NCBI RefSeq assembly: GCF_006345805.1
Contig: NC_043000.1
Coordinates: 139,376,001 to 139,440,000, forward strand
Direction: 5' to 3'
Source: Octopus sinensis
Lineage: Eukaryota
DNA length: 64,000 bases
Shown: positions 1,769 to 59,128 of the stretch, piece by piece
How the letters are laid out: the number at the start of each line of letters is the position of its first letter
Numbering within the stretch: the first letter of the stretch is position 1
The notes under the pieces: generated by a model
What the model saw: the letters and a program-made list of their open reading frames with translations, nothing else
Databases searched by the model: none
What the model was told of the DNA's origin: nothing
Program-made: the position numbers and the translations under genes

Positions 1769-2288
1769 ATCACAATAAGGGTGAAAAAAATTGAATATTA
1801 ATTAATAACATCAATTTAAAACACCAAGTGGCCTAGCGTAAAAAAAACTGATACAGTAAAAATTATTAATACAAGTAATAAGTGAGGGACCACATGTGGT
1901 CACTCTAACGCTAGAAATAGATCCGCAAAGGGAATCCACCACTAAAGAATTGTTCTCAAGCATTAATTCAACACGCCAAGAATGTAAGCGGGCAGGACAA
2001 ATGAAAAATAATGAAAAAATGGATTAATTCTATACAATTGTTTCATCGTTAATAGATTGTGTAATTTTACTTACAAATCATTTTCGAATCATCGGTAGAG
2101 TATATAAAAAATATAATTTGCTGAACCAAACGCCAAAATCCACACAAAGCCGAGCAAAGGCGAACGGCACAGCCGACATTCTTGGCGTGTTGAATTAATG
2201 CTTGAGAACAATTCTTTAATGGTGGATTCCCTTTGGCGATCTATTTCTAGCGTTACAGTGACCACATGTGGTCCCTCTCTTATTACTT
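1769..2288 (-). mobile_element. Penelope-like element pseudo-LTR fragment with partial inverted duplication
   Basis: Inverted arms ~1872-1985 / 2176-2288; hammerhead in the spacer; 13-bp direct repeat ATATGTATACATA at 1756-1768 and 2289-2301. Confidence 0.7.
2029..2099 (-). ncRNA. Minimal hammerhead ribozyme (U4C core variant)
   Basis: Minus strand: ucua CCGAUGA [stem II] GAAA caauug UA uaga; stem I ucua/uaga pairs; stem III palindromic. Confidence 0.65.
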
Positions 2289-2642
2289 ATATGTATACAT
2301 AGATATGCACACACATAAGTGTGTGTAAGTCTAATTTTACAGTTACCAGTGAAACACCCTCTCTGATTCAAATTGAATATTTATACCAAAGTAGGTCCTA
2401 TAATATATTTGTCATTAAACCTGCTCAAAATAATTTTTTATACTATCTTACCAATTCTTAATAGAGAAAAGATGGAATAGTATCTTTCAGAAATAATTAA
2501 TTAATTAGCTATATCCCATATAATTTGTTCATTCAAGTAAAGCATACTCTGATTAAAGAGGAGAAGTAATAACAGAATTTTAAAAAATAGTTTAGCTTAT
2601 CAATTTTTAAGTATTGCCAAATTGAGAGTGACTCAGAGAGTA

Positions 2643-2846
2643 TTACTCTTTTATTTGTTTCAGTCATTAGAATGTGGTCTTGCTGGAGCACCGCCTTTAG
2701 TCAAGCAAATCGACCCCAGGACTTATTCTTTGTAAGCCTAGTACTTATTCTATTGGTCTCTTTTGCTGAACCGCTAAGTTACGGGGACGTAAACACACCA
2801 CTATCGGTTGTCAAGTGATGTTGGGGAGACAAACACAAACACATAA

Positions 2847-2879
<33 letters not shown>

Positions 2880-3046
2880 CATATGTACGGCAGGCTTCTT
2901 TCAGTTTCCATCTACCAAAATCCACTCACAAGGGTTTGGTCAGCCCAAGGCTATAGTAGAAGACACTTGCCCAAGGCACCAAGCAGTGGGACTGAACCCG
3001 GAACCATGTGGTTCATAAACAAGCTACTTACCACACAGCCACTCCT
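2643..3046 (-). mobile_element. SINE family A, full-length
   Basis: Reverse complement of family A with internal (TA)n. Confidence 0.9.
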
Positions 3047-3487
3047 GTGTTAGAAAAAGAATTTCAAATATTATAATCATGGAAGCTAATAATGATATAG
3101 CTACAAGGTTGCTTGGCCCACTCAGAATAGCAGCTGACTCTCTTCAAATTTTTACTTTAGAGTCATAAATAAAGAAGGATGCAACTGGTAATGTAGTCTC
3201 TGATGATCTAAAAGATCAGATGTTTACTGCTAAAACACATTTGATATGCCTGCTTTATCTGTATTGACCTGGGGCTAAATAGCAATGTAATGTGTAACCA
3301 TAATGTTAAAGCTGGATGGCTCAGGATGACAGCTTTATTTATGCCACTAAGTATAATTAAAGCACGTGCAACACTCAAAGAACTGAAGCAAAGAGATTGT
3401 TAATTACCCAGCAACAACCTATACCCTATAGAATCTTTAATTAATTTAATTACTGTAGTTAACACCTTTCTCTTTCTTTTCAATCAT

Positions 3488-4525
3488 TTATCTTTTACTT
3501 GTTTCAGTAATCGAACTGTAGCCATGCTGGAGCACCTAGTTCAAGAAATTTTAGTTGAACGAATCAACCTAGTGCTTATGTTATTAAGATTGGTGCTGTT
3601 TTGTCATACCACCAAGTTATAGGATGCAGAGAAACCAACACCAGTTGCCAAATGATAGTGGTGAATAAACACACACAGACACACACATACTTGCCTGCAC
3701 ATATGCATGCACATACACACACACATACATACATACGTACATACATACATACAAACATACATACATACATACATACATACATACATACATACATACATAC
3801 ATGGTGGCTGCCCCCTCGTTATTGAGTATGGCCATTGCACGAAGCTTAATCAATGTTGTTATCATGCAATGCCTGTGCAAGAAGATATTTTATTAAGTGA
3901 GGAAAGGCTGTGCACTGAGTCAATCCCACTCACTAAGCAGCAGCAGCCATAATCTGAAAAGAAGAACAAGTCAACATCATCGGTAACCACTGAGTCGCAG
4001 GTTTTATTTCGGAGTCATCCCAGTTACCTGAGTTACCTTCTCCTAGAAGGATGCCCTAACAAAGGCTAGGAGTCCTTCACTCCCAATGGTTTAACCGCGC
4101 GATCGGGTATTTAGTCCGATTATTTCTATGTCCCCGCGCATGATACAGCCTTAAGCCATTTATTGGATGGCCGTTGACTCTCAAGAGTTCCTCCGCCCTT
4201 TGACGGGTTTTGTTTTTCATCCCACAGGGTGTCCAATAAACACCCTCCTCATCAAGCAAGCTTGGTGGGGTTGCCGGTTTAGTCACCGACGACCCAACCA
4301 TGCAACAGGTTGTACTGGGTTACATGTTACCAGTAGCACTCAAAAGTGACATACATACATACATTTATTTATCATAGATTTATTTCAGTTTCCATCTGCC
4401 AAATCCACTCACAAAGATTTAGTTGGCCTGGGGCTATATTTGAAGAAACTTGCCCAAGATGCCATGCAGTGGGATTGAACCTGCAGCCACATGATTGGGA
4501 AGCAAATATTTCGCCGCACAGCCAT
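3488..4525 (-). mobile_element. SINE family A (old), split by a nested insertion at ~3720-4347
   Basis: 3' half at 3488-3720, 5' half at 4350-4525. Confidence 0.7.
3720..4347 (-). mobile_element. Non-coding retroelement of ~540 bp with (ATGT)n tail, probably RTE/RTEX-derived non-autonomous element
   Basis: GC-richer unique block 3801-4347 running into (CATA)n at 3720-3800; motif AGTTACCTTCTCCTAG...AAGGCTAGGAGTCC resembles RTE/RTEX UTR motifs; no ORF, no tRNA head. Confidence 0.5.
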
Positions 4526-5314
4526 ATATTCCTCATCAGTATGGGTGTAAATTTAATTAGTTAAAAAATATTGATTTCACTAGATTAAATATGTTAACTA
4601 CCATTTTAACTATTTGTTCTTCTTACAGAAGGCATTCCTGAGCAATCTCCCGCTCCGAGACATCAACTGAAGCATAAAAAAATTTACGTGCTATTGCTGT
4701 TGTGTGATGGGTGTAGAAAGCAGCCAATTTTGAACTCATAACTTTGTAGTCAATACTCCAGTGCTTTCACTACTTAGCTCATAATTCAATTTAACAAAAA
4801 GGCCATCAAATGCTTGTAAACATTTCATGTTATATGATTTCAATATAACAAAAAAAAAAAAGAAAAAGAAGAGAAGCTTCACCACCCCACCACAAAAAAA
4901 TACTAATAATGAAAGAAAAAAATTATAAGAATGGTTTATAGAATAGAATATTTATGTAATGTATAAAAGATTACATGATAAGTCAATTTTAGTAAATTAT
5001 CCCTCAAGGAATATGAAAGTATTACTAATTTGATAAATACTAGTAAAATTCTATTGAAATTGAACTATTTCACTTTGTGATGTTTATCTCTTATCCACAG
5101 TCAATCTACTTTTAGATTTAAACAAGATACATTGATGGATATGTTCATCTCTTTGTGTGTGTGTGAGTGTGTGTGTCTATGGGATATGTGTATGTGTTCT
5201 GGTGGATTTAAGTTTTTCTGTATTCTTTTTTGTATATCTATCATACTAAATATCATTTTGTAATATTTTATTGGTATATAGAAAATTCTAAAGTCATAAA
5301 TTCATATTATATGA

Positions 5315-5440
5315 TCTCTCTCTCTCTCTCTCTCTCTCTCTCCTTTCTTTCACTCCCTTTCTCTCTTGCTTTCTCTCTTTCTTTTCCTCTCTCTCTCTCT
5401 TACTCTCTCTTGCTTATCGTCTCTCTTTCTTATTCCCTCA
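5315..5440. repeat. (CT)n microsatellite
   Basis: Direct reading. Confidence 0.9.
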
Positions 5441-5689
5441 ATACACATAGATATCTAACTAATATAAGTACTTATGCTTAGACAAATATGTACGCATATG
5501 TGTATATAAATATGTATGTGTGTGCATTGTTTACTATCAGTAGTGTATGTTTACTTTGAAGTAATAGCAGCAAAACTTTGAAGTAAACAGTCACTATTGA
5601 TATATGTTATTTTGACTCTATAGTCAGCATTGAGTCCTATATTCAGTGCATGTTTACTATACATAAAAACAAACTTTAAAAGGATGACT

Positions 5690-6255
5690 GTATAAATATA
5701 TATACATATATACATATATGTGTGCATATAATATGTATATATATGTATATATGGCTTTGTGTGTGTATATATATATATATATACACACACACACATAAAT
5801 CTGAATATAAATACACACATCTATATACATATAGATGTATATATATATACATTACATATATATGCATATATATATAATATATAATAAATACACACACATC
5901 TATATACATATAGATGTATATATATACATTACATACATATGGATATATATATATATAATATATAATAAATACACACACATCTATATACATATAAGTGTAT
6001 ATATATGCATTACATATATATGCATATATATATATATAATATTTTATATATACATTACGTATATATGCATATATATATAATATTTTTATATGTTTTATTA
6101 TATGTCCCTAGACGTATATAAGCTTATACAGAATCACCTATATGTACATTGTGCCTAGACACACACACACACAAACACAAACACACACACACACACACAT
6201 ACACACACACACATGCATGCACACACACATGCGTGTGCACACACATACACACATT
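5690..6255. repeat. Compound (TA)n/(CA)n microsatellite with ~78-bp higher-order unit
   Basis: AAATACACACATCTATATACATATA...CATTACATA recurs at about 5810, 5887 and 5967. Confidence 0.85.
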
Positions 6256-6864
6256 CCTACACAATATCACTTTCTTGTTTTGTAAATTACTATTTTTCAG
6301 TAATTTCTTCAATTTTCATGGAGTTTGATGCCAAAGCTAGCTACTTAAGCCAACGGATTGCTTTGATACTTTAGTAAATAGCAATTTGGGACAGAGGAAA
6401 ATATATATGTGATGTGACTATTTCTAATACAAGCTCATGTCTAACCATAAAAGAAACTCTTTTATTTACATCGTTAATAATCTTAAGAACTATATGAAGT
6501 GTGTCACCACTTCTTATATATATATATATATATATATTCCTTTTAAAAAATATATTAAGTACTAGTTATGTACTGGAGTCGATATAATCAACAGTACTAA
6601 TTCCCCCACAATTTGAGACTTTGTTTCAATGTATGAAATAATAATAATAATAATTTATAATAATAATAATAATGATGATGGTGATGATGATGATGATGAT
6701 GATGATAATAACAAGAGCACTCAGAGAGTGCAAACCTTCATTAAGACACCATCAACATCCTCTCAATGATTAGCTGGAGATGATTTTTATAAAATGAGAA
6801 TATCTGAAATAAACATGACTGCTTTCACAAACGAGAATACTAAAAATGAACCCAACACACCAGC

Positions 6865-7162
6865 ATTTGACTGTGGCCATGCCAGAGCACTGCCTTTAGT
6901 CGAACAAATCAACCCCAGGACTTATTTTTTGTAAGCCTAGTAGTTATTCTATTGGTGTCTTTTGCTGAACCACTAAGTTACAGGGATATAAACACACCAG
7001 CATCTGTTGTCAAGCGATGTTGGGGGGACAAACACAGACACACAAACATATACACACGCATGCACATATATATACATATACACATATATGATGGGCTTCT
7101 TTCAGTTTCTGTCTACCAAATCAACTCACAAGGCTTTGGTCAGCCTGAGGCTACAGTAGAAG
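6865..7162 (-). mobile_element. SINE family A, truncated
   Basis: Matches family A body. Confidence 0.8.
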
Positions 7163-7505: not shown

Positions 7506-7509
7506 TCAA

Positions 7510-7981: not shown

Positions 7982-8015
<34 letters not shown>

Positions 8016-8893: not shown

Positions 8894-8925
<32 letters not shown>

Positions 8926-13965: not shown

Positions 13966-14225
13966 TGGAAAAAAAAGTCAAGATAAAAAATGCTAAAATA
14001 ATTTTATAAAAAACATTTCAGTACCGGTTTCAGTCATTGAGACTTTTTCAACTGTAACAATTAAATAATTAAATTTAGAAAAATTAAAAGAAAAGTTTTT
14101 TTAAAAGAATATTTGTATAGTGTTCAAATACAAGGGGGCATTTTCCTTGTTTCTGCCTGTCTCTGTCTCTCTTGTTTACTCTTGTGGGTTCGAGGTCCTT
14201 GTGAATTCTTGGTAGTAAATTCTTG

Positions 14226-22690: not shown

Positions 22691-24341
22691 GTTGCTGTTG
22701 TTATTATCAAAGACCATTAACAATATAAACGTTACATAAAATTACTAAGCTATATGAAATGATAATGATGCTGATGATGACAATGGTGATGACGATGTTA
22801 ACATTTCAGGTTATTGTATAAAGTGTTAATTTGTTTCTATTTCATTTCATAATTTTCTTATTCATATACTTATTTAACCAATTATTCATATCCTACATTA
22901 AAAAAAAAAAAAATTCACTGTTATTATCAACCCTAAATGAAGTCAGTTGGTGCATCAGATGGAAGTGGATACATAATGTGAACATCTTTTATTTTATTTT
23001 ATATTTATTTTTCATTCTTTAGTTTATTTCTTTCTTTACACATACTTCCCTTGCACTCACTGCTCTGATGATTGGATTTGTTCATAGGGATACAAACTAG
23101 GCCACTTTCCTTTAGTCCTTCAGAATCTTCCCTTATAAAGATACAGCAATGAAGTATTCACCTTAAACTTTTCCGGGGGTTATTTCAAGGTAGTCGAATT
23201 TTGATAATGTTTATTTTGGTGGGGAAAGGTATGATATCTTGTAAAAGTATATATGTTACAAAAATGGAGAGATAATGTGATATCATTTGGTTTTTCAACC
23301 TTGCTGGCTCACTCTGACACATAAATGAGTTGTTTCTTTCATGAACCTTGTATATTTGGTAGCCAAGAGTGATGGGCACGGATGGAGCTCCTAATCAGTT
23401 TCTACTCAGCCCTTGAAGGGAGAGCAGACACGATTATATAACTCGTTCTCTGGATTTGTTGTTCGTTGTTTTGTTTGACAAAATAACAAAGATAAGTATC
23501 CAGTGAATGAAATATCTTTTGCCATGGTAGAAAACTCTAATGATGACATATCTTCAGTGAGCAATGCCTTCTCTGCTGATGTGACACTGATATGGAGAAT
23601 TCCAATAGCAGTAAGCAACAGAGTCATATTAACTTATCTGCTGAAGACAACCCTCATCTTCTTCCAAGGTTTCCATGCACAGCAACACCAAGAATAAAGA
23701 TTGATGGCAACATCATTGCAATGGCTCTCCTTGAATTCTTATCATGGGTGTTTCATAAAACTTTGATTGATTCAGTTTGCAGGTAAATAGACAGATTTGC
23801 TGGACAAAATCCAGCATGTAATTAGACACCTGTCACACCTGCTGAATTGTATTTTTATTTTTATTTTTCCACTGAAAATGCTTTAAAGCCTAGTCAGTTT
23901 ATCAGAAGGAAGAAGATATCCATTGGTCAAAGTATACTATGTTTCAGTTACTTTGGTTTTAGAAAAACGATGTCACACAACGAGTATAGAAAAATTAAGC
24001 AGTATATTCATTCCCCATCTCCATGCCAAACTAAATATCATATATGAAATACTCTCATTTGCTAGCAAAATTTCCACAGTCCATAGACTTCAAAAAAGGA
24101 ATGTTAGTGTTAACAAAAGCCTTATATTGTATAAGGATAAGATTGGTGTGTTTAATAGATTCCTCTCAAACGCAGTAAATTTGGGGTAAAATATTTCATG
24201 TTCCGGAGATGTACTTGCATAGCAAGTGATCTGTTCCGAGATCATGTGCTGGAACGAAATCAATTACAGCGCAGAAGGTGTTTATAAGCCATTTAAGAAA
24301 CACACAAAAACTGTTAGATTCACTTCAACATTTAAATTTAA

Positions 24342-24392
24342 TTTGTCAAAATATTTTCATCATTTTGAGACTGCGACCTGTTCACTGACAAA
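24342..24392 (-). ncRNA. Minimal hammerhead ribozyme (G3-C8 core variant), left-arm copy
   Basis: Minus strand: uuuguca GUGAACA ggucgc...ugau GAAA auau UU ugacaaa. Confidence 0.6.
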
Positions 24393-24411
24393 ATTCTGTG
24401 CAGCATGGAAT

Positions 24412-24462
24412 TTTGTCAGTGAACAGGTCTCAGTCTCAAAGTGACGAAAATATTTTGACAAA
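24412..24462 (+). ncRNA. Minimal hammerhead ribozyme (G3-C8 core variant), right-arm copy
   Basis: uuuguca GUGAACA gguc...gac GAAA auau UU ugacaaa; 7-bp stem I; palindromic stem III AAUAUU. Confidence 0.65.
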
Positions 24463-25235
24463 TTAAATTTAAATGTTGAAGTGAATCTAACAGTTTTCGT
24501 GTGTTTCTTAAATGGCTTATAAACACCTTCCATGCTGCAATTGATTTCATGTTCCATGAATCTGAATCAAGGTGTGCTTTGGAAGTTGTTATATATGTAG
24601 GAAAATAGTCAAACCTAGAGAAATTTTGTGACTTTCCAATATACTTTCCAGTAATTATGACACACATTAAATCTTTGCTGCCACAAGTCTACTATCTCAA
24701 TAGTGATAATTTTACACTAGTCTACGACTAACTGATATACTTATCCAGAATTATACTGATGTGTATGACGATATTAACCAAAACAGAAAAGAAAGACAGA
24801 CAAAAGAAAAGCTGAAAAGGGATGAAAATTGTGGCTCTTAGAGAGGAAAAGTTTGGGCCCTAAAATGGAAAGTTTAAAAAAGTGTCTACAGTTCACTCTC
24901 TTTTACTCTTTAAATGGTTTCAATCAAAAGACTGTGGTCATACTGGTGCACCATCTTAACTTAATTTCTATTAGTTTTGTCATCACTTTATGGCAGGAAG
25001 TTGGACTGTGATTGAGTTTGTAGCAACTGATCTTCACTGAGTCTATCCTTGAATATCATTAGGGGTTTATCTAATGTTCTTTTAATATTTCACTAGAGGT
25101 TTCTTTTATACTTGTGAAAGATCAGAGGCTATTTACAACTACAACTCACAATAAAAAGGGTGATTAAGGTCAATCAGCATCTTGGTGATTACCCAACCCA
25201 ATACCTAGAAAAGGAGAAGAAAGTTCTATATGATC

Positions 25236-26327
25236 AGTACTGCATTACATTTGGCCAAAAACCAGCTTTGGCATGCTTCATCTGTGGACAAGGAATACAC
25301 GAAGCGTGCTACTTAAAAAAGATAAATAACCACATCATTCCAGATATTCTAGGCCTACACTGGCTATGCAGTTATTGTTCACCAAGGGCCACAATAACGA
25401 ATGAACCTAGGACCCTACCACAGACAGGCCATTCTAAACAGACATTGATTGGCGAAACTGACATGGCAAATAAATCCTGCCACACACAGGCCATCCAAGT
25501 GCCTCTTGTAAATGACAAGAATGAAGACAATGACATGCAAACACCTACAAAACAAGAAACAGGAGATCCTGCAGAAAAAGACCAAACTTCCCACGAAAAG
25601 AAACAGATCCAGAGCAAACGCTCAAATGAAGGAAGGCCAGTATGTATCCATTACAGGCGCAACAAGTGCAAACATGGTCTTTCAGGTACAGGGTGCATGT
25701 ACAGTCACCCCAAACCATGCAGACCATATATCAACTTCGGTACTGATCGAAAAAAAGGATGCCAAAATGGCCGAGAATGTGAACTCCTTCACCCAAAGAT
25801 GTGCCGCAATTCGCTGAGAAAAAAAATGTTTTGGTGAGAATTGCAAATTTATGCACCGGAAGGGTACAATTCGCATAAAAACTACTGAACCCACACCACC
25901 AGGACCAAGCTCAGCAGGGTATGAAAACCATTTCCCAAAAATGCGGAAACCAGGTCATGGCTCAGCAGGGTATGAAAACCATTTCCCAAAAATGCGGAAC
26001 CCAGGTCATGGCTCAACAGTGAATGAAAATCATGCTACTCAATTGTATACATCAGCTGTAACAAACCCAAACTCGCAGAAATTCGATATAGTAATGAATG
26101 AAAGCAGTTTTTTAGGCATAATCTACCAACTACAACAACAGCTGTACTCCATACAGACGACTCAGCAAAACCAGGCAACATTGATACAAAGGCTGACACC
26201 TGGACTTACAGGGCACGTACAACAAATACAGACAGCCCAGCAGACCGAATATCCAGTCAGCACAGTCCCAGCAACTACAACAGTCTTGCCAACAATAGGG
26301 CAGATGTATCCGGTACAACAAGCATAA
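25236..26327 (+). pseudogene. LINE ORF1 (truncated PHD-like finger plus tandem CCCH zinc fingers), one +1 frameshift in A8 run at 25819-25826
   Basis: CFIC..H..C...WLCSYC (PHD lacking its first CxxC); CIHY..KC...GC.YSH, CRPY...GC..GRECELLH, and CRNSL..KC..ENCKFMH after removing one A. Confidence 0.8.
25909..26032 (+). repeat. 51-bp in-frame tandem repeat in ORF1 (SAGYENHFPKMRKPGHG twice plus partial)
   Basis: Direct reading. Confidence 0.9.
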
Positions 26328-29313
26328 TAACAGCAAATATCCAGGGTCTTTATCCGAAAACAAAACAGTGTAAAGTCCCTTTCTTGGAAGAATTAGCAAC
26401 AGAAAACAACTCCAAAATAATTGGAATTACTGAAAGTCATCTCAACGAAAACATCCGCAACAGCGAAATCACAATCAATAGATTCAACATCTTCAGATGT
26501 GATAGACAAGGCAGATCCCATGGGGGTGTTATCATGTATATCCATGATACATATGCATGCATAGAACTTGTCAATGAATCAAATGCCTACTGCAACCTGC
26601 TGTGCATAAAAATCATCCAACTTAACACAGTTGTAACAATAATGTACAGGCCGCCAAACAGCCCAACATTATCCTTCACTGAGCCACTGACGAAGCTCCA
26701 ACAAATTCTGGGAAACATGGCAAGTCCAATGCCAGACATTATCCTCCTTGGTGACTTCAACTTCCCTAACATCATCTGGCCACATGGACACATACTAAAA
26801 CTGGGGACAAAAGCTGAACAAATACAGGCAGCCAAACTGTTGGAAGTCACAGAGAAATTATACCTCAAACAAATGATGACAGAAGCAACAAGAAATAATA
26901 ATACGATCGACTTGGTTTTCACCAACAACGAGGACACGCTATTTGACCTTCACTCAACCCCAACAATCCTTTTAGACCACAATATTATTGAAATGCATTT
27001 ACACATTGGTAATGAGCCCAATGCCACAACTCTTAAACAAAAGGACATGCCAAAGCTATGCAGGTATGATTATCACCAGGCAAATTGGGAAACTATTAAC
27101 AACCAGTTACAAATCATTGACTGGATCTCTACCTTACTGGGCCAGATAAACACAAGAAATTCTTAAACAAGATCGAAGAAATATGTGAAAAAAATGTTCC
27201 TCTAAAGAAAACCAAGTCCACAAAAAAACCTGTACCACGGGAGCGAAAGATCCTGATGCGCAAAAGGTCAAGACTAAGAAACAAAACATCTAAGCTGACA
27301 TCAAAACATGAATTACAGAAAGTCCTTGACCAAATATACAGATTAGAAGACAATCTAAAACAACACTATGATGAAGAACGTAACAATGCAGAAAAGAAAG
27401 CCATAGAAAACATCAACAAAAATCCAAAATGTTTCTACAGTTTTGCAAAGAAATACTCGAACACCAAGTCAACAATAGGACCTCTCCAGAGACAAAATGG
27501 GGATGTAGTGAATAACCCTATTGAAATGGCAGAAATGTTGGGTCAACAGTATGAAAGTGTCTTCAGTGAGCCATCTAAAACCATGAAGATCCATGACCCA
27601 GGAAAATTCTTCAAGGATATCGACCATACTAAACCTACCCTATCCGACATTGATTTCAACCCAGAAGACATAGCAAGAGCAATAGACAAGATCTCCATGC
27701 ACTCGGCTGCGGGGCCTGACGGTTTCAATGCCATGATACTTAAAAACTGCAAGGCACAATTGTCGAAACCCCTTTACATGATATGGAGGGAATCTATGGA
27801 GAATGGCAAAATACCAAATACATATAAAGAAGCACACATAACTCCAATACATAAAGGGGATAGCAAATCAAAACCAAAGAACTACCGACCAATCTCACTG
27901 ACATCACACATTATCAAGGTCTTCGAAAGAATAGTTCGTGGAAAACTGGTTGAGTTCCTGGAATCCAACAATCTGATGAATTGCAACCAGCATGGATTCA
28001 GGTTAGGTAGATCATGCCTTTCCCAACTACTGGCACACCATGACCAAATCCTAGAAAATCTAGAGAATGGATACAACACAGATGTTATCTACCTCGACTT
28101 TGCCAAGGCATTTGACAAGGTAGATCATGGCATCCTGGGTCACAAACTTCGAAAGCTAGGAGTAGGAGGAAAAGTTGGTACATGGATACACGAGTTCCTT
28201 ACAAATAGAACTCAAACAGTCACTGTGAATGGAACCCATTCAACACCATCACCTGTGACCAGCAGTGTTCCTCAGGGTACAGTACTCGGCCCAATCCTGT
28301 TTCTCATCCTCATCTCTGACATAGATGAAGATACAACCAGCAACGTCTCATCCTTTGCTGATGACACCAGGGTCATGAGACAAATCAAAGACGAGATGGA
28401 TACAGAGGCCTTACAAAAGGACCTGACCACCATATATAAATGGCAGGAAACAAACAACATGTTGTTCAATGATAAGAAGTTTGAACTAATTCGCTATGGA
28501 ACAGATCAAGATCTGAAAAATACAACAAACTACAGAAACCCATCAGGACAACAAATAATGGAAAAACAGTATGTGAAAGATTTAGGCATCCACATGGGAA
28601 CCAACCTAAAATTCAGAGAACACCTTGACTCAGTCTGTCTTACTGCAAGAAAGTACAGCGGGTGGATCTTGCGCACCTTCAAATCAAGAGATACCTCAAC
28701 AATGAAAACCCTCTGGAACAGTATGATACTTCCGAGGATTGACTACTGTTCTCAGTTGTGGTCACCAACAACAAAGGGCCAACTATCTAAGATAGAATCG
28801 CTCCAAAGAAATTTTACCTCATACTTCTCAGAAACGAGGGACCTGGACTATTGGCAAAGACTCAAAACCTTGAGGATGTACTCAATAGAAAGAAGATTTG
28901 AGCGATACCGAATTATATACATTTGGAAAATGATAGAGCAGAAGGTGCCAAACTTTGGTATCAAAACCTACCACTCACTGCGCCACGGAAGACGCTACCA
29001 GCTGCCACCAATCAACAAAAAGGCTGGCCAGGCAGCAAAAACCCTGCGAGAATCAAGTCTGTTGGTTCGAGGAGCACAACTGTTCAACTCCATTCCGGTA
29101 CATGTCAGAAATCTATCAGGATGCAGTGTGGAATCATTCAAATTGCAACTGGATAGATACTTAAGCACCATTAGAGATGAACCCCATCTCCCAGGATATA
29201 CACAACGAGCACAAACTGACTCAAACTCGCTCCTACACATGTCAAATTTAAGCAGAGAATACAACCTGGCAACCACACCAAACTCTGAGGGTGGAGTGTT
29301 CGACTTGGCCTGA
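26102..29313 (+). pseudogene. LINE ORF2 (APE endonuclease + reverse transcriptase), one 1-nt deletion near 27133
   Basis: APE motifs NIQGL, ITESHL, YRPP, GDFN, TR...IDLVF, DH; RT motifs GPDG, YRPISLTS, QHGFR, DFAKAFDKV, VPQGTVLGP, FADDT, DLG; frame open from 26102. Confidence 0.92.
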
Positions 29314-29364: not shown

Positions 29365-29377
29365 ATCTATCATATGC

Positions 29378-29786
29378 TTTTTTCTTTTACTTGTTTCAGT
29401 CATTTGACTGCGGCCATGCTGGAGCACTGCCTTTAGTCGAGCAAATCAACCCCAGGACTTATTCTTTGTAAGCCAAGTACTTATTCTATCAGTCTCTTTT
29501 GCCAAACCACTAAGTTACAGGGATGTAAACACACCAGCATTGGTCGTCAAGCAATGCTGGGGGGACAAACATACACACACATACACACACACATACACAT
29601 ATACACACATATATACACATACTACAGGCTTCTTTCAGTTTCCGTCTACCAAATCCACTCACAAGGCTTTGGTTGGCCCGAGGCTATAGTAAAAGACACC
29701 TGCCCAAAGTGCCATGCAGTGGGACTGAACCCAGAACCATGTGGTTGGTAAGCAAACTACTTACCACAAAGCCACTCCTGCGCCTA
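29378..29786 (-). mobile_element. SINE family A, full-length
   Basis: Family A reverse complement. Confidence 0.9.
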
Positions 29787-34081: not shown

Positions 34082-34487
34082 TACTCTTTACTCTTTTACT
34101 TGGTTCAGTCATTTGACTGCGGCCATGCTGGAGCACCACCTTTAGTCAAGCAAATCGACCCCGGGACTTATTCTTTGTAAGCCCAGTACTTATTCTATTG
34201 GTCTCTTTTGCCAAACCGCTAGGTGGCGGGGACGTAAACACACCAGCATTGGTTGTCAAGCAATGCTAGGGGGATAAACAAAGACAAACAAACACATACA
34301 CACACATATATATATATACATATATACGACAGGCTTCTTTCAGTTTCTGTCTACCAAATCCACTAACAAGGCTTTGGTCGGCCCGAGGCTATAGTAGAAG
34401 ACACTTGCCCAAGGTGCCACGCAGTGGGTCTGAACCCGGAACCATGTGGTTGGTAAGCAAGCTACTTACCACACAGCCACTTCTGCA
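34082..34487 (-). mobile_element. SINE family A, full-length
   Basis: Family A reverse complement. Confidence 0.9.
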
Positions 34488-40167: not shown

Positions 40168-40875
40168 ACTCAACAAACATGCTAAAAATGGAGAAGATGC
40201 TAAAATTTGAAAGAATTTTGATACATGCATACGATCGTTTTGAACAACGATATTAACATGTAAATACCATGTAGAATAATTAAAATTAATGTGATTAATT
40301 TAGATTAATTACATATCACTGTTCCCTTCAAGGCAAGATGTAGACAACAATAGTTATTATTATTACAGAAGACTTGAAGGAGATAGCAGAAAACAAATTT
40401 GGATATACATAGACAATATCATATAACATTTTTCTCATTTTGTGTAAATACACCCGAATTGGCTATCTGCTATCTCTTTTATCAAGTCTTCTGTAATAAT
40501 AATAATAACTATTGTTGTATACTTCTTGCACTGAGGAGATCTGTGATATATAATTAGTTTAAATTAATCAAATTAATTTTAATTATTCTATCATGTTATT
40601 TACATGTTAATATCATTGTTTGAAACGATCACATGCATGTATTAAAATTCTTTCAAATTCTAACTTCTTCCCTTCTCCAGTTTTAACATATTTGTTGAGA
40701 TTCTATGGGCTACTTTTCCATAAATTCTCATAACACACCATATACATGTAATAATTTCATATTTTTCATAAATTTTACACCAGTAATACACCAGCTAAAT
40801 ATGAAGAATCTTTGTTAGAAATCGCCCTTTGGAACCTTCCAAAATAAAGGATGAAATATAATTCAAACTTTTCAC
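40168..40875. mobile_element. Penelope-like pseudo-LTR with ~225-bp inverted arms
   Basis: 40168-40390 is approximately the reverse complement of 40465-40699; each arm has a long-stem-II hammerhead; flanked by (CA)n/(TA)n. Confidence 0.7.
40527..40637 (+). ncRNA. Degenerate hammerhead ribozyme with long stem II (mirror copy at 40226-40335 on minus)
   Basis: Two-arm consensus ugca CUGARGA gaacagugauau...auaucauuguuc GAAA cgaucg UA ugca. Confidence 0.55.
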
Positions 40876-43384: not shown

Positions 43385-43650
43385 TTATTTACATTCTCAT
43401 CTGGTTTGTTGTTAATACAACATTTCAGCTGATATACCCTCCAGCCTTCATCAGGTGTCTTGAGGGAAATTTCGAACCTGGCTTCTCATTCCTAAGGTTC
43501 AAAATTTCCCCAAGAAACCTGAAGAGGGCTGCAGGGTATATCAGCCAAAACATTGTGTTAACAACAAACAAGATGAGGACAAATATCAGTCGAATATAAA
43601 TAATGTAAATAATGTACATAATTCCTCATCTCTTAAATATAGAACTGTAA
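43385..43650. mobile_element. Penelope-like inverted pseudo-LTR with hammerhead in each arm
   Basis: 43385-43480 is approximately the reverse complement of 43495-43610. Confidence 0.75.
43415..43458 (-). ncRNA. Minimal hammerhead ribozyme, canonical core (mirror copy 43515-43558 on plus has GAAA>AAAA)
   Basis: Minus strand: acac CUGAUGA a ggcug-gaggguauau-cagcu GAAA ug UU guau. Confidence 0.7.
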
Positions 43651-44667: not shown

Positions 44668-44929
44668 GATGGAGGCGTGTGGCTCAGTGGTTAGGGTGTC
44701 AGCATCATGATTGTAAGATTGTGGTTTCGATTCCTAGACCGGGTGACGCATTGTGTTCTAGAGCAAAACACTTCATTTCACGTTGCTCCAGTCCACTCAG
44801 CAGGCAAAAATGAGTAACGCTGCGATGGTCTGGAGTCCTGTCCAGCTGGGGAACACATACGCCATTGAAACCAGGAAACTGGGCCCATGAGCCTGGCTAG
44901 GTTTTAAAAGGGCGCATTAATTATAATTT
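44668..44929 (+). mobile_element. SINE family D, full-length with 12-bp TSD
   Basis: A box TGGCTCAGTGG, B box GGTTTCGATTCC; TACATTACTAGC at 44656-44667 and 44930-44941. Confidence 0.85.
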
Positions 44930-53079: not shown

Positions 53080-53312
53080 AAGGCGATGAGCTGGCAGAAA
53101 TGTTAGCATGCCGGGCAAAATGCTTTGCAGTATTTTGTCTGTCTTTATGTTCTGAGTTCAAATTCTGCTGAGGTCGACTTTGCCTTTCATCCTTTCAGGG
53201 TGGATAAATTAAGTACCAGTTATGTACTGGGGTCGATGCAATCGACTTAATCCCTTTGTCTTTCCTTGTTTGTTCCCTCTATGTTTAGCCCATTGTGGGC
53301 AATAAAGAAATA
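53080..53312 (+). mobile_element. SINE family B, full-length
   Basis: GGCGATGAGCTGGCAGAA...GCCCATTGTGGGCAATAAAGAAATA; AAGAWGATGAAGG duplicated on both sides. Confidence 0.85.
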
Positions 53313-53791
53313 AGATGATGAAGGGTCTGAACATATTCTCAAAGAAACATGCCCAAGAAATCATTGTAACAGAAGAATCACGGTAAAGTGAATAATGTTT
53401 TCCAGAACGTAATTCCTTTCAGCTTAGGCATCATGATTCAGGATCAGACAGAACAAATATGGATAACGGGACATAGGGAGCAAAAAGGAACAGGGAGATG
53501 TAACTCATGTTCTTCCTCTCAATTCTGGATGATATGATATGGATACCAGGAAAGAATAGGAGAAAAGAAAAGCATACAATAGAATAGATAGTGGGGTTGA
53601 TGTAAGGGTATAGAATAGGTAATAGTCAAGTGAGATGGAGATGTGTGTACTTTACAATAGGAAAACTGGTGTATACTCTATTACACTGTTTCAAGGTGTA
53701 TTTTGTCAAGCTTTCATGGGATTTTGGGTCTTCTGCAGTGCCACATATTGCCAGTAAACACACTCTTTTATCCTCAATTTCATCAGTTTGG

Positions 53792-53954
53792 CATAGGAGT
53801 GGCTGTGTGGTAAGTAGCTTGCTTACCAACCACATGGTTCTGGGTTAAGTCCCACTGCGTGGCACCTTGGGCAAGTATCTTCTACTATAGCCTCGGGCTG
53901 AATAAAGCCTTGTGAGTGCATTTGGTATACGGAAAATGAAAGAAGCCTGTCGTA

Positions 53955-54003
<49 letters not shown>

Positions 54004-54228
54004 ATGTATATGTTTATGTGTCTGTGTTTGTCCCCCAACATCACTTGACAATCGATGCTGGTGTGTTTACATCCCCGTAACCTAGTGGTTCGGCAAAAGA
54101 GACCGATAGAATAAGTACTAGGCTTACAAAGAATAAGTCCTGGGGGTGATTTGCTCGACTAAAGGCGGTGCTCCAGCATGGCCACAGTCAACTGACTGAA
54201 ACAAGTAAAAGAGTAAAGAGTAAAGAGA
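53792..54228 (+). mobile_element. SINE family A, full-length
   Basis: Family A. Confidence 0.9.
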
Positions 54229-54239
54229 GTTGTAACATC

Positions 54240-54960
54240 TTCAGATACTTTTTCACCATTACATCTCAAGTCTTCAACAGTCTCTCTCTTCTACAGATAA
54301 CATTCACTTCAGGCACTCAGCACTTGCTTATGAAGCTATCATCTCTCATTGAAATCATGGTCTATGCCACAGTCTCCTCTTTTGCACCCTTCTTCTGATT
54401 TCCCCATGTGTACCCAATTTACCTTTCTCTTCATTCATATTTTCATTTTCATGCACACTAGTATGGCACATCAGCACCTCATTTCTTTCAACCCTTCGTA
54501 GATTCTCCACATTAAAAGCTCATATCTTGCTATTGAGCAGCAGTGTACTTTATACACGAAGCTCATAAAATTTGCTCTTTGAACTTGAAGGAGAAACTCT
54601 TAGTTGTTGGCAGACACTCAAGCTCCTGAATTTTATTCAACCCATTTTTATTCTAGCTTTCACATTTTGAGAGCAGCTTCACCCTCTACCAATTGTGTGG
54701 CCAAGATAACAAAACCTATCAACTAATAGACAAACTTCTAAGCATTTGAGGAGCCTATTTTTCAAGTAGCTCCAATACTTATTGTCCCAGTGCACCTGCT
54801 TTTATGAAATCTACATTTTTGTGTTTTAGTCCTACCTGTAATACAACTGCACTTCTAGAGTTTTTATTGTTTATGGTGAGCACCCTTATAGAATTTCTGC
54901 TAGTATCTTTACTGCAAACAGATCTTGTCTACTTGCCTTCTTAGTAAAACTTATGTTATT
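54240..54960 (-). mobile_element. Degenerate RTE LINE ORF C-terminal relic
   Basis: Minus-strand remnants resembling G.NK.....LPTTKSFS...YE...SV LL...W..NVE.LRRVERNE; many stops and indels. Confidence 0.5.
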
Positions 54961-55002
54961 GCTAAATTTACTTAATGTATATATATAAAATAATAATAAT
55001 AA

Positions 55003-55251
55003 ATGCACCCTTTTAAAACCTAGCCAGGCTCATGGGCCCGGTTTCCTGGTTTCAATGGCGTATGTGTTCCCCAGCTGGATAGGACTCCAGTCCATCGCAG
55101 TGTCACTCATTTTTGCCAGCTGAGTTGACTGGAGTAACGTGAAATGGAGTGTTTTGCTCAAGAACACAACGCGTCACCTGGTCCAGGAATTGAAACTACA
55201 ATCTTACGATCATGATGCTGACACCCTAACCACTAAGCCACGTGCCTCCAC
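55003..55251 (-). mobile_element. SINE family D, full-length
   Basis: Reverse complement of 44668-44929. Confidence 0.85.
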
Positions 55252-57244
55252 TTATATATATATATATATATATGTACATACATACACACACATGCACGTG
55301 ACCACATCTTGTTTGTATGGTTTATAATGTGATAATGTTTCTATAACAGGATGCTCTTCCTAACCTCAACCACTTTACAGAATGTACTGGGTGAACTTTA
55401 TTGTTGTTCCAGCTCTAATGACGATGTCTTGTATCCTGCCAAATACATTTTCTCTATTTTCATGTAGCAACAGGCAACAAAAATAATCATTTGACCAGGA
55501 GAGTAGGTAATTGCAGATGATAAACAGAGGTGGAAAAAAGAAAGAAAGAAACATATAATGGGGGTGGAAGTGTGAGGGGTGTGACAACATTTTTACCTTT
55601 TGTAATGGATATGATTGAATTAAGGTGTATGTTATATAAGAGTTGTTTCCAAATGACTGCTAATTTGCTAGTGTTGTTTACAACTGATTTGTCAAAAGCT
55701 TTTCAAACATTTTAAATTCATTATATTCAGAAAAGGAATTCATTAAAACTTGATTCAAAAACCATAATAGGTCTTGCTGAATTCAGGAGTGATTTTCTTT
55801 CAAAGCACTCCTTGATTCTGTAGGCAAATGAGATTTGGAGGAATCATATATTTGTCAACAATGTATTTGTGCATATATAAACACATACTTATGTTTTCTA
55901 ATTACAATCCTTAAAACTGCAAACCAATTAATATTACACAAAATGAGTTTCTGTCGTTCTTGGGTTGACTTTGTAAGTAACCTTCTATAACTACATCAAT
56001 TGTTTATATCAAAATATAAAAAAAGAAATGTTTCAGAAAAGAAGGGACACTTATGACTAGAAAAATTTCATGAAATTACAGTTCATTTTTGAATTAATGC
56101 CTCTTATTTGGCATTCTGTCATTGATTACTGAGTTTTTTTCCATTTCTTTTTGAATGGGTCTGCTTCATGTCTTTCCATCTATCATGACAGAATGATAAA
56201 TATCCTACTAACTTAGAAGATTTATTTATGCATTTCTATTTGAGAGGAGACAGCATCAACAATGAAGTAATTTGAATTTGGCCAAAATATCGATTTTATA
56301 GTGTGACAGCTTACATCTATTCATTTCCCATGTAGGGCTGATACCTGGGAAACAGAATAGATGATACCACTTAGTCTTGGAAGCTGATGCTAAAAGGTGG
56401 TATATTCCATATATTCCACATTTAATGACCTTGCCTGATGAAGAATGTATGGTGTCGAAATATGTTTGTCCTTCATGGCAGATTCAGGAAATGTTGTGAT
56501 AGATTAAGGATGGTCTCCTACATGTCTTAAAAATCTTTGGCATCAAGATTTCAGAAATTTATATGGTTCAATGTGCCCTAACTTGGTATGAAATCTCAAA
56601 ACCGAGTTTTATTTACTGCAAGATATTTTGAAAACAAAGTATGTGGAAATTGCTTTCAAATTCTTTTAACCTGAGTCCAGTGTTTGAAGAATACGAAGGA
56701 TATTACTGAAGTAGAAATAACTGTGAATATTACTAAAAATGGCCACTTTAATATGGATGGTTAATTTTCCGGGGTTGGAACCTATTGAACTTCAGCCTTT
56801 TGGAAGCTTATCTTGAAGCATACCAATTTAAATGCAATGAACCAAGAGCTTCTAGTGTACTATACTACTGAAGTGCTGTGTTGGGATTACATGAATCATT
56901 AACATAATGAGATTTGTAGATGTTTGTAGAAGAAAAAAAATCAATTATGTCAACGTTAGCATGGTTTTAACTCATAACTCTTTATAATTCTTATCTAGTG
57001 AACAACTCATACATGAGATAATCTTGTCTGGTATTCTAATACAGAGACAGTCTTCTAATTTCAAGATTTTTTTTTTTAAACTTGAATGTTATGTTGTTTG
57101 TCTCCTTGTAGTTGCAATACTGTGTTACTGAATGTATTTATCACCATGATTTGATTACTTATTGAAGTCTTTGAAATTTCAGAAGTTTCAAAGTTATCTA
57201 GTTTGGCTTAGTTTTCTGGGATTTTTATTTTGTTTATTATTATT

Positions 57245-57638
57245 TACATGTGTGAGTGCGTGTACATATGTATATATATATGTGTAAGTGTATTTGTGTG
57301 TATATTTATATATAAACATATGTATGTTTATACATACGTATGTATATGCATTTATATGTACACACACACACATATATATATATACACATATATATATACA
57401 TATATATACAAATGTATATATTTAATACACACACACACATATATATATATATGTATGTATATATGTATATATATGTGTATGCATATTTATAAATGTATTT
57501 ATATACGTATGCATATGTGTATATATATGTATGTATATATGTATATATATGTGTATGCATGTTTATAAATGTATTTATATACGTATGCATATGTGTATAT
57601 ATATTTGTATATATATACATGTATATATATGTATATGT

Positions 57639-57684
<46 letters not shown>

Positions 57685-57693
57685 CATATATAC

Positions 57694-57785
<92 letters not shown>

Positions 57786-57810
57786 TATATATATATGTAC
57801 GTATGTATAG
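57245..57810. repeat. Long (TA)n/(TG)n compound microsatellite
   Basis: Direct reading. Confidence 0.95.
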
Positions 57811-58607
57811 TTGCATAGATTTTAAATATCATTTGATAATCATTTTCATTCATACAGCTAGTAACCATGAAATATTGCAGTTCATGATAATTTATATCAA
57901 TTGCAGAAATATTCTTGCTTCTATGTATAAATATCTTTAGAAAGCTACTGTTTGGTCTTTTTATTTTATTTTATTTTATTTTTTTTTTTGCTTTATCCAT
58001 TTCTGTCTTTCATTCTGTCATATGATATACAAATATGGCTGCTGCTTATTTTATAATCTCTTGATATTCAATTATTAATGCTTAGTCCGAATCTTTTACT
58101 GATAATGACTATATAATATTTCTCTCGAACAAGAAACAAGAAATATAAAACAGAAATAAAAAAAAAATGTTTCTAATAAAATTAAAATATCCATAATCTA
58201 AGAGAAATTTTATAGAGAAATTCTCTGAGACTCGAGTAAAATAAAAGACAAATATGTAAAGTATATAATCGGAAAAGTTGTTTGAAATTCCTGTTTCACA
58301 AACTGGTACTTATATCTGAATTAGATCAATTTATGTATGCATTTATGTATATAGTTATGTATGTATGTATGTATGCATGTATGTATGTATGTATGTATGC
58401 ATGTATGCACTTATGTATGTACACACACACACACATATATATATATATTAGAAGAAGCAATATATACCTGCTAAAATGGAACCCTAACATGGATCCCTAG
58501 ATCCAGCTTTAGCTGTGACCTTGGAACCTAACTGCTAACCAACTACAGCTCCTACCCAGTCTACCTATTCGTTTAGATCACAAGTGAACTAAAACCCTCA
58601 TATTCTA

Positions 58608-58649
<42 letters not shown>

Positions 58650-58657
<8 letters not shown>

Positions 58658-58900
58658 AATTCATAGATAAGGGCAAACGAAAAATTTCTAATGCCAAATA
58701 TGCCGAAAAATTGGACATATTGTCCATTAACCAATTTTTTGTCCAATTTTTCGGCATATTTGGCATTAGAAATTTTTTCGTTTGCCCTTATCTATGAATT
58801 GTTTATAAATTTAACCTTTAAAGGTATTTTTTAATATGCTGGCCATTGATAAAATTTTTTTGGGAAAAGAATTTTTTCGAAAAAGTTTTATCCTACATTA
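58650..58900. mobile_element. Insert in (TA)n with ~68-bp near-perfect inverted arms, probably a Penelope-like end fragment
   Basis: 58650-58717 is the reverse complement of 58740-58807; (TA)n on both sides. Confidence 0.5.
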
Positions 58901-58952
58901 GATATATATATATATATATATATATAAAGAGAGGGAGAGAGAGAGAGAGAGA

Positions 58953-59128
58953 GTAAATCCCAAAACGAGGAAACACAAAAAACAACAGCATGAGGACGTG
59001 GTACATGTAAAGTATTAGCAGACACTCAGAAAGGAAAGAAAAATGGTTTAACCTTTCGAGCAGATGCTTTTCTTCGGAAACAGAGAAAGGTCCAATAGAA
59101 GGGAAGCTGGAGGAAGAAAATCGCCAAT
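58953..59128 (-). mobile_element. Penelope-like fragment between (GA)n and (TA)n
   Basis: Carries a hammerhead; related sequence at 17083-17130 / 17530-17568. Confidence 0.6.
59046..59081 (-). ncRNA. Minimal hammerhead ribozyme (U4C, partly decayed)
   Basis: Minus strand: guuu CCGAAGA a aagc-aucu-gcuc GAAA gg UU aaac. Confidence 0.55.

What the first reader, a model, noticed from the sequence alone, without database searches (positions are those of the whole stretch)
2029..59081. Six unrelated hammerhead ribozyme families whose catalytic cores covary at the 3-8 base pair
Seen: six sequence-unrelated short inserts, plus the decayed family at 40168-40699, each fold as stem I / core / stem II / GAAA / short palindromic stem III / UH / stem I'. 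Cores read CUGAUGA (43448, 50719), UUGAAAA (14045), GUGAACA (24419 and mirror), CCGAUGA (2089) and CCGAAGA (59071). Established: hammerhead C3 and G8 form a Watson-Crick pair in the active fold, and Penelope-like pseudo-LTRs carry minimal hammerheads with palindromic stem III thought to act as dimers. Inference: positions 3 and 8 changing together (C-G, U-A, G-C) is not random decay. It points to selected, lineage-specific ribozyme variants that a CUGANGA search would miss, i.e. a hidden and diverse ribozyme-retroelement system in this genome.
Basis: partly seen in the sequence, partly recalled or inferred. Interest (0 to 1): 0.82.

Follow-up and report, generated by a model that had tools for sequence, protein, structure and literature searches.

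The report
Penelope ribozymes swap a catalytic pair
The short inserts are leftover ends of Penelope-like jumping genes, each carrying a small hammerhead-type RNA motif, and across this animal genome their families use all four Watson-Crick versions of one pair in the catalytic core, which suggests the motif's self-cutting fold is under selection, though cutting itself is untested.

Summary
The motifs are real: minimal type I hammerhead folds at all six sites. Four of six carry the ordinary C3-G8 pair, so the window alone offers only two swaps. Genome-wide these are family traits: U3-A8 in 95 of 100 listed copies (170 hits), G3-C8 in 89 and 97 of 100 (533 and 1419 hits), C3-G8 in none. Outside the window I found A3-U8 families (164 and 4 hits). 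Of 25 multi-copy families, 24 pair 3 with 8 (permutation mean 11.3). U3-A8, A3-U8 and G3-C8 motifs lie 0.3-1.3 kb behind Penelope-like GIY-YIG reading frames. A tree needs only 3-4 switches, so families are not independent. Penelope minimal hammerheads and U3-A8 are published (PMC4209133), so the system is not hidden. I found no report of natural G3-C8 or A3-U8 in the papers reachable; two key papers were not held. This scan noted single G3-C8 cases before in protist Penelope tails and a phage. Cleavage untested. Verdict: new variant of a known kind.

The parts
2027..2101 (-). Minimal type I hammerhead motif, core CCGAUGA (C3-G8, U4C subfamily), 44-nt stem II region, palindrome ACAAUUGU, A17; inside a ~430-nt insert (about 1860-2290) made of a direct copy plus an inverted truncated copy
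   Evidence: 750 first-look candidates
14016..14057 (-). Minimal hammerhead motif, core UUGAAAA (U3-A8), 4-bp stem II with A10.1-U11.1, palindrome ACCGGU, A17; 3' end of a Penelope-like element, ending at (TA)n
   Evidence: 170 exact pattern hits, U3-A8 in 95 of first 100; GIY-YIG frame upstream on the same strand in L012, L095, L107, L110
24412..24462 (+). Minimal hammerhead motif, core GUGAACA (G3-C8), extra G after A9, stem II damaged in this copy (5 bp with G10.1-C11.1 in relatives), palindrome AAUAUU, U17, 7-bp stem I
   Evidence: 533 exact pattern hits, G3-C8 in 89 of first 100; GIY-YIG frame 1280 nt upstream in L248
24342..24392 (-). Mirror copy of the G3-C8 motif; the two copies form the head-to-head inverted pair (about 24230-24540) typical of Penelope-like insertions
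43415..43458 (-). Decayed minimal hammerhead, canonical core CUGAUGA (C3-G8); stem III ACGU decayed to AUGU
   Evidence: C3 in 14 of 16 and G8 in 16 of 16 aligned copies
43515..43558 (+). Mirror copy of the 43448 motif, core CUGAAGA, GAAA decayed to AAAA
50671..50729 (-). Intact minimal hammerhead, canonical core CUGAUGA (C3-G8), 9-bp stem II, palindrome ACAGCUGU, A17
   Evidence: C3-G8 in 6 of 7 aligned copies, the seventh truncated
59046..59081 (-). Decayed minimal hammerhead, core CCGAAGA (C3-G8, family-level U4C); stem III ACGU decayed to AGGU
   Evidence: 80 pattern hits: C3-G8 in 73, C4 in 54, U4 in 24
40527..40637 (+). Decayed minimal hammerhead, canonical core CUGAGGA, ~85-nt AU-rich stem II; partner copy on the minus strand at 40226-40335
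40226..40335 (-). More decayed inverted partner of the 40531 motif (core reads UUGAAGG)

Best explanation
The inserts are truncated 3' ends (pseudo-LTRs) of several Penelope-like retrotransposon families, each carrying a minimal type I hammerhead motif whose 3-8 core pair has switched among C-G, U-A, A-U and G-C in a few parent lineages, likely because the parents are selected to keep a self-cleaving fold. Shown: the motifs, their family-level cores, the pairing statistics, the link of the U3-A8, A3-U8 and G3-C8 families to GIY-YIG reading frames, and 3-4 switches on the endonuclease tree. Inferred: in a tandem or multimeric transcript two motifs would pair their stem III palindromes, the element's own protein would help folding, and the RNA would be cut 3' of H17, slowly. 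Reverse transcription from the 3' tail into (TA)n targets then leaves short, often inverted copies that decay neutrally. The four C3-G8 window families and the 40168 family are filed as Penelope-like by architecture only.
For: Family-level cores with positions 3, 4, 7, 8 left as N: G3-C8 in 89 of first 100 of 533 hits and 97 of first 100 of 1419 hits of a younger subfamily; U3-A8 in 95 of first 100 of 170; A3-U8 in 99 of first 100 of 164 and 4 of 4; C3-G8 in none of these. Census of 2.06 Mb held: 24 of 25 multi-copy clusters are Watson-Crick at 3-8 (15 C-G, 6 U-A, 2 A-U, 1 G-C), permutation mean 11.3, 0 of 100,000 permutations reach 24; 40 of 45 with singletons; in the unbiased 800 kb 31 of 35 hits pair against 2 of 8 in ten shuffles. 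Position 7 varies freely and no cluster has G17 as its majority. Same-strand GIY-YIG frames 0.3-1.3 kb upstream: U3-A8 (L012, L095, L107, L110), A3-U8 (L199, L218, L377, L385), G3-C8 (L248, L420, L422). Full frames of related families hit RVT_1 (below Pfam's cut-off) and GIY-YIG (above it). Every labelled lineage on the tree has a Watson-Crick pair; 4 changes, 3 if the A-U rows are one clade (not rejected, p-AU 0.33). Extra base after A9, G10.1-C11.1 and the palindromic stem III match PMC4209133. The C3G/G8C double mutant partly restores cleavage of a Penelope hammerhead that single mutants abolish (PMC11167929, passages). C3-G8 forms only in the active fold (PMC3884650, passages).
Against: No cleavage was measured. 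Penelope minimal hammerheads cleave poorly even as dimers (PMC4209133). In the one reconstituted element, cleavage needed the protein, was not needed for insertion in vitro, and no RNA-seq reads ended at the cut site (PMC11167929). Several parents tolerate changes expected to lower activity: U4C at family level (also L263), A10.1-U11.1 in the 14045 family, 2-bp stem II in the L199 family, and a G3-C8 stem III palindrome with predicted duplex energy of only -0.2 kcal/mol. The permutation test treats related families as independent; the true number of events is about 3-4. One of 25 clusters is A3-G8 (window 40801); I read it as a false hit in the 3' extension of the 40168 element but did not drop it from the count. 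No reading frame was linked to the 2089, 43448, 50719, 59071 or 40168 families. The tree rests on ~175 residues of one domain, with long branches and no root.
Confidence: 0.75

Rival explanations
1. The fold is selected as a structure, not as a catalyst: the 3-8 pair keeps a shape that the element's protein binds (packaging, choice of the reverse-transcription start, promoter or translation signal), and cutting is marginal or absent.
For: Hammerhead mutants did not affect insertion in vitro and no read ends were found at the cut site (PMC11167929, passages). Naiad elements thrive without canonical hammerheads (PMC8557442, passages). Family-level U4C and weak stems are tolerated here.
Against: The 3-8 pair is a feature of the catalytically active conformation (PMC3884650). 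G5, A6, A9 and GAAA are fixed by my descriptor, so they are no evidence, but H17 was free and no cluster majority is G. The same paper shows pair-dependent cleavage by a Penelope hammerhead.
Confidence: 0.17
2. The variant lineages carry dead or dying ribozymes; the paired states are historical accidents of a few founder elements that spread regardless.
For: Only 3-4 independent switches. Inserted copies decay in the core (3.7% at non-CpG sites, 16.7% at CpG).
Against: Each switch needs two substitutions, and no lineage with a mismatch is seen among 21 labelled elements. U3-A8 persists in families whose proteins are only ~50-62% identical and whose stems and loops share little sequence. Both G3-C8 subfamilies keep core and stems while loop II differs.
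Confidence: 0.06
3. The motifs are chance matches in AT-rich palindromic repeats or miniature inverted-repeat DNA transposons.
For: Several inserts are long inverted repeats. Rfam finds no hammerhead.
Against: 35 real hits against 0.8 per shuffle. Same-strand position behind Penelope-like frames. Inverted arms differ in length and junction from copy to copy, as in Penelope insertions. Rfam misses canonical copies too.
Confidence: 0.02

Closest known systems
Minimal type I hammerheads (min-HHRs) of metazoan Penelope-like elements (Cervera and de la Pena 2014, PMC4209133; read parts 1-2 of 4 of the text and parts 1-2 of 3 of the supplement)
   Same: Position in the pseudo-LTR behind an RT/GIY-YIG frame; palindromic stem III; extra base between A9 and 10.1; many dispersed solo copies; inverted pairs 100-700 nt apart; many consensus families per genome; U3-A8 covariation (about 1,300 hits in Schistosoma mansoni).
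   Different: Their alignment of 56 representatives shows C3-G8 except two U3-A8 and one U3-G8; no G3-C8, A3-U8 or U4C. Here all four pairs occur in one genome, tied to element clades, and some stems II reach 45-100 nt.
Protein-assisted hammerhead of the Anolis Poseidon element PAc (Frangieh et al. 2024, PMC11167929; passages read)
   Same: Penelope pseudo-LTR hammerhead; engineered C3G/G8C partly rescues cleavage; tail with two 3' end points, as seen here in the G3-C8 family.
   Different: PAc is C3-G8 in nature and of the Penelope/Poseidon clade; the G3-C8 pair here is natural and sits in elements with a CX2-5CxxC linker.
Natural hammerhead core variants (Perreault et al. 2011, PMC3088659; passages read)
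   Same: U3-A8 covariation in nature; U4C known from a viroid with low activity in vitro.
   Different: The passages read name only U3-A8 at 3-8; mostly non-Penelope ribozymes with tertiary contacts. Its Figure 5 could not be seen.
Non-LTR retrozymes (Li et al. 2026, 10.64898/2026.07.22.740005; part 1 of 5 read)
   Same: Non-coding hammerhead-bearing repeats derived from Penelope pseudo-LTRs.
   Different: Retrozymes are head-to-tail tandem arrays; these are solo or head-to-head inverted truncation products (only L047 of about 120 G3-C8 loci inspected showed a tandem), and longer copies run into a reading frame.

Membership tests
Penelope-type minimal hammerhead | Core N3-U4-G-A-N-N8-A ... GAAA with A15.1-U16.1 and H17 | tested here: met
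   U4 is C in the 59071 family and the 2089 subfamily
Penelope-type minimal hammerhead | Watson-Crick pair between 3 and 8 | tested here: met
   24 of 25 multi-copy clusters
Penelope-type minimal hammerhead | Short stem I, stem II, palindromic stem III allowing a dimer | tested here: met
   palindrome broken in two window copies, intact in relatives; AAUAUU duplex very weak (-0.2 kcal/mol)
Penelope-type minimal hammerhead | Self-cleavage 3' of H17 (as dimer or with protein) | not testable with these tools
   only assembled contigs were available
Penelope-like element (EN+, C-terminal GIY-YIG) | RT plus C-terminal GIY-YIG frame upstream of the pseudo-LTR, same strand: 14045 (U3-A8) and 24419 (G3-C8) families | tested here: met
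   L012, L095, L107, L110; L248, L420, L422. For the G3-C8 parent only the thumb/linker/GIY-YIG part was held, not the RT core
Penelope-like element (EN+, C-terminal GIY-YIG) | Same feature for the 2089, 43448, 50719, 59071 and 40168 families | tested here: inconclusive
   no linked frame in 30 loci each for 2089 and 40168 (nearby frames carry their own, different motif) and few loci for the others
Penelope-like element (EN+, C-terminal GIY-YIG) | 5'-truncated copies, adjacent inverted copy, 30-40 nt optional tail, (TA)n targets (PMC8557442) | tested here: met
   the G3-C8 family's optional tail is longer, about 55-60 nt
Neptune/Nematis clades of Penelope-like elements | CX2-5CxxC motif between RT and EN (PMC8557442) | tested here: met
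   CGRPNCGIC in L281, CQSNCAVC in L421
Neptune/Nematis clades of Penelope-like elements | Placement with named reference elements on an RT tree | not tested
   no reference Penelope proteins were fetched
Non-LTR retrozyme | Head-to-tail tandem repeats each with a hammerhead, no coding parent in cis | tested here: not met
   solo or inverted copies; longer copies are continuous with a reading frame

The most novel reading that the evidence does not exclude
G3-C8 and A3-U8 are active natural hammerhead cores not yet described, carried by thousands of young Penelope-like copies, so one animal genome samples all four Watson-Crick versions of the active-site pair. This is a natural compensatory-mutation experiment showing that catalysis, not just shape, is selected in Penelope-like elements, and it means CUGANGA- and U3-A8-based censuses undercount genomic ribozymes.
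Probability: 0.45. Interest if true: 0.62.

Novelty: new variant of a known kind. Interest (0 to 1): 0.46.

Why it matters
What the hammerhead does for Penelope-like elements is still open: it cleaves poorly in vitro and was dispensable for insertion in the one reconstituted system. The 3-8 pair exists only in the active fold, so its survival through three or four double substitutions in separate lineages is comparative evidence that the active fold is selected. The four natural versions, each with young high-copy families and an identifiable parent protein, give ready substrates to test this. Practically, 8 of 35 motifs in an unbiased sample have U3-A8 or G3-C8, so descriptors should allow any Watson-Crick 3-8 pair. 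The advance is incremental: the system and one of the three swaps are published.

Tried and rejected
Rfam: no hammerhead family in the window or in five loci holding intact motifs, one canonical; uninformative. 'G3-C8 unit is a stand-alone 210-nt non-autonomous element with a hard 5' end': suggested by 90 loci, rejected when L248, L420, L421, L422 and L354 showed longer copies running into a long untranslated region and a GIY-YIG frame; the apparent end is a truncation hot spot, and one of my patterns had selected for it. 'The frame in L134 is the parent of the 2089 family': rejected, it carries its own U3-A8 motif. 'U3-A8 motif 2 kb behind the frame in L317 belongs to it': rejected, separate (TA)n-flanked insertion. 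'C3-G8 motif 719 nt behind L377': separate insertion; the linked motif is A3-U8, relabelled. 'G3-C8 arose from A3-U8 through a G-U wobble': not supported, the parents fall in distant clades. First tree (43 rows) suggested C-G basal to U-A; the second (24 rows) does not fix the direction. A3-G8 hit at window 40801: 3-bp AU stem I, part of the 40168 element's extension, read as a false hit. Expression: no RNA holder on record; 21 runs listed, all contigs, which cannot show ends or cleavage. A Pfam accession recalled for the Penelope thumb domain is not in the library. Lunse et al. 2017 (PMC5785218) and Przybilski and Hammann 2007 (PMC1986816) are not held. Two candidate long G3-C8 loci could not be fetched, so the RT core of that parent was not seen.
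Full report
Setting. The window is G000:C4:139376001-139440000, in a 2.72-Gb AT-rich animal assembly; it is 36.7% G+C and full of microsatellites and short interspersed repeats.

Observation. A descriptor with positions 3 and 8 free finds 2089, 14045, 24419 with its mirror, and 50719, plus one weak extra hit at 40801. The 43448 and 59071 copies have lost the palindrome by one change each; relatives keep it. The 40168-40699 insert is an inverted pair of a family with a canonical CUGAGGA core and an ~85-nt stem II. The descriptor is specific: 35 hits in 800 kb of evenly spaced genome sample (80 stretches of 10 kb) against 8 in ten dinucleotide shuffles; a stricter version gave 16 against 0.67. 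Rfam reports no hammerhead in the window but also none in five loci with intact motifs, one canonical. Four of the six window cores are C3-G8, so the window alone holds only two informative swaps.

Are the variants family traits? I searched the genome with flank patterns that left positions 3, 4, 7 and 8 as N and counted the listed rows by eye. The 24419 family gave 533 exact hits; of the first 100, G3 96, U4 96, C8 93, G3-C8 89, C3-G8 0, with position 7 the most variable (9 U). A younger subfamily with a different loop II gave 1419 hits; first 100: G3 100, C8 97. The 14045 family gave 170 hits; first 100: U3 96, A8 98, U3-A8 95, C3-G8 0. The 59071 family gave 80 hits: C3-G8 73, C4 54, U4 24; a second CpG in the same pattern reads A in 17 of 80, so the U4 copies may be CpG decay of a C4 parent. 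For 2089, 29 clustered hits are all C3-G8, 20 with U4 and 9 with C4, so the window copy is a minority subfamily. 43448 is C3 in 14 and G8 in 16 of 16 copies; 50719 is C3-G8 in 6 of 7. In contigs of four runs under four organism codes no other letter was listed at the G3-C8 core positions at 5% or more, two rows not shown.

What carries them? A GIY-YIG search of the genome returned 147 matches from 5029 candidates; I fetched 30 as loci plus 40 further regions around listed matches. Full frames of 775-781 aa hit RVT_1 (E about 1e-6, below Pfam's cut-off) and GIY-YIG (above it) and have a CX2-5CxxC linker, the mark of the Neptune/Nematis clades in PMC8557442. The 14045 motif lies about 460-640 nt behind such a frame, same strand, in 4 of its 60 loci (L012, L095, L107, L110). 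Most G3-C8 copies are ~210-nt truncations, but L420, L422 and L248 run through a 1.0-1.3-kb untranslated region into a GIY-YIG frame, L420 and L422 being colinear over 1.7 kb and L354 over 1.2 kb; L248 is the window's own subfamily. Copies are 5'-truncated, often joined to an inverted copy, have an optional 3' tail and sit in (TA)n, the architecture described in PMC8557442. No frame was linked to the other five window families.

Beyond the window. Reading the regions behind Penelope-like frames showed further U3-A8 families (L188, L134, L194, L195, L193) and two A3-U8 families (L199, L218). Pattern searches allowing one mismatch gave 164 hits for the L199 type (first 100: A3 99, U8 100) and 4 for the L218 type (4 of 4). 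Clustering all 279 distinct hits in the 2.06 Mb held gave 45 clusters. Of the 25 with two or more copies, 15 are C-G, 6 U-A, 2 A-U, 1 G-C and 1 A-G; 24 are Watson-Crick against a permutation mean of 11.3, and none of 100,000 permutations reached 24. With singletons, 40 of 45 pair (mean 25.0). This sample is enriched for the families I searched for; the unbiased 800 kb gives 23 C-G, 4 U-A, 4 G-C and 4 mismatches (two U-G, one C-A, one U-U), at least two of which are decayed copies of C3-G8 families. The A-G cluster (window 40801) is part of the 40168 element's 3' extension with a 3-bp AU stem I and is probably a false hit; it is kept in the count.

How many events? On a tree of ~175 residues of linker and endonuclease (24 rows, 21 labelled; 19 of the 43 rows left out net, mostly those without a motif assignment, and L421 added), the fewest changes of 3-8 state are 4, or 3 if the A-U rows form one clade, which is not rejected (p-AU 0.33). 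U-A covers two groups, A-U nests in one of them, C-G is one clade, and the G-C parent lies in a distant clade. The root and direction are not established, and long branches meet. Eight of the U-A labels and several were assigned by eye where the scanner missed a motif. So the permutation value overstates independence, but every labelled lineage has a Watson-Crick pair, each switch needs two substitutions, and U3-A8 persists between families whose proteins are only about 50-62% identical. Inserted copies decay: in 30 G3-C8 copies chosen by their 5' flank, non-CpG core sites differ from the column majority in 9 of 240 cells and the CpG core site in 5 of 30, against 154 of 1894 downstream. Selection therefore acts mainly on parents.

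Mechanism. Shown: anatomy, family-level pairing, linkage for three variant types. Inferred from the literature: C3-G8 forms in the active conformation (PMC3884650, passages); Penelope minimal hammerheads cleave weakly as dimers through the palindromic stem III (PMC4209133; review PMC6765202, passages); in the Anolis element PAc cleavage needs the element's protein, is lost in C3G or G8C and partly restored in the double mutant, yet is not needed for insertion in vitro and left no read ends in RNA-seq (PMC11167929, passages). I therefore favour slow, dimer- and protein-assisted self-cleavage of tandem transcripts under selection in parent elements (0.75), over a binding structure without meaningful cutting (0.17), dead ribozymes (0.06) or chance (0.02). 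Tolerance of U4C, A10.1-U11.1, 2-bp stems II and a very weak AAUAUU helix fits a low-activity or assisted ribozyme and also feeds the first rival.

Comparison with what is known. PMC4209133 describes minimal hammerheads in Penelope pseudo-LTRs across metazoans, their solo and inverted copies, and the U3-A8 covariation with about 1,300 hits in Schistosoma mansoni. Its supplementary alignment of 56 representatives has two U3-A8 and one U3-G8 and no G3-C8, A3-U8 or C4. PMC3088659 reports natural U3-A8 and cites a viroid U4C. Engineered G3-C8 is known. Searches for natural G3-C8 or A3-U8 found no report, and a search joining hammerhead, Penelope and the suspected host group returned only PMC8557442. 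The library lacks most subscription papers; Lunse et al. 2017 on Penelope-associated hammerhead variants and Przybilski and Hammann 2007 on 3-8 exchanges could not be read, figures are not held, and the third part of the 2014 supplement was not read. PMC6155905, PMC7151607 and PMC13725137 were seen as passages and added nothing on 3-8. Earlier notes of this scan mention single G3-C8 motifs behind Penelope-like RTs in two other genomes and in a phage (unchecked); none exists for this genome.

Verdict. Observation confirmed, interpretation partly supported. It works like, and by sequence criteria is, a Penelope-type minimal hammerhead; activity is untested. The new element is high-copy, parent-linked natural G3-C8 and A3-U8 cores, giving all four pairs in one genome. 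New variant of a known kind; interest 0.46.

Noticed in passing
L199:2065-2105 (+), L385, L377, L218/L371: Two A3-U8 hammerhead families behind Penelope-like frames, not present in the window; 164 and 4 genome hits. The L218 type has an odd-length stem III palindrome.
   Followed up: yes
window 59071; L263, L251, L022, L212, L139: U4C is a family-level state in several unrelated C3-G8 families (6 of 45 clusters by majority), although it creates a decay-prone CpG and is reported to lower activity.
   Followed up: partly
window 40531-40637 and 2045-2088; L304, L022, L350, L417: Many families have stem II regions of 45-100 nt, AU-rich and often hairpin-like, much longer than in published representatives; size-limited descriptors would miss them.
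   Followed up: partly
L281:91-1527 (+) and 3791-4800: A young 781-aa Penelope-like family has a second, upstream 479-aa frame and a ~950-nt 3' region with short tandem repeats rich in GATTGG and TGACGT motifs ahead of a U3-A8 hammerhead whose stem I is weak; possibly an internal promoter region.
   Followed up: no
L420:1316-1345 versus 1545-1560: In the G3-C8 family the truncation hot spot 24 nt before the core is complementary to the last bases of the 3' tail, suggesting that copying stops or switches template where the two ends pair.
   Followed up: partly
window 25118-29310 (+): A LINE-like element: apurinic endonuclease frame 26102-27163 (Exo_endo_phos_2) and RT frame 27121-29310 (RVT_1, E 2e-30), preceded by cysteine-rich frames; unrelated to the hammerheads.
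   Followed up: partly
window 58650-58810: Near-perfect inverted repeat with ~75-nt arms beside (TA)n, without a recognisable hammerhead core; possibly another inverted insertion.
   Followed up: no
window 2641-3033, 29377-29781, 34086-34486, 44670-44928, 53080-53311 and others: At least three high-copy short interspersed repeat families, one with about 20 copies in the window, some with tRNA-like heads by eye.
   Followed up: no
window 40781-40875 (+): Weak A3-G8 descriptor hit inside the 3' extension of the 40168 family; read as a false positive.
   Followed up: yes
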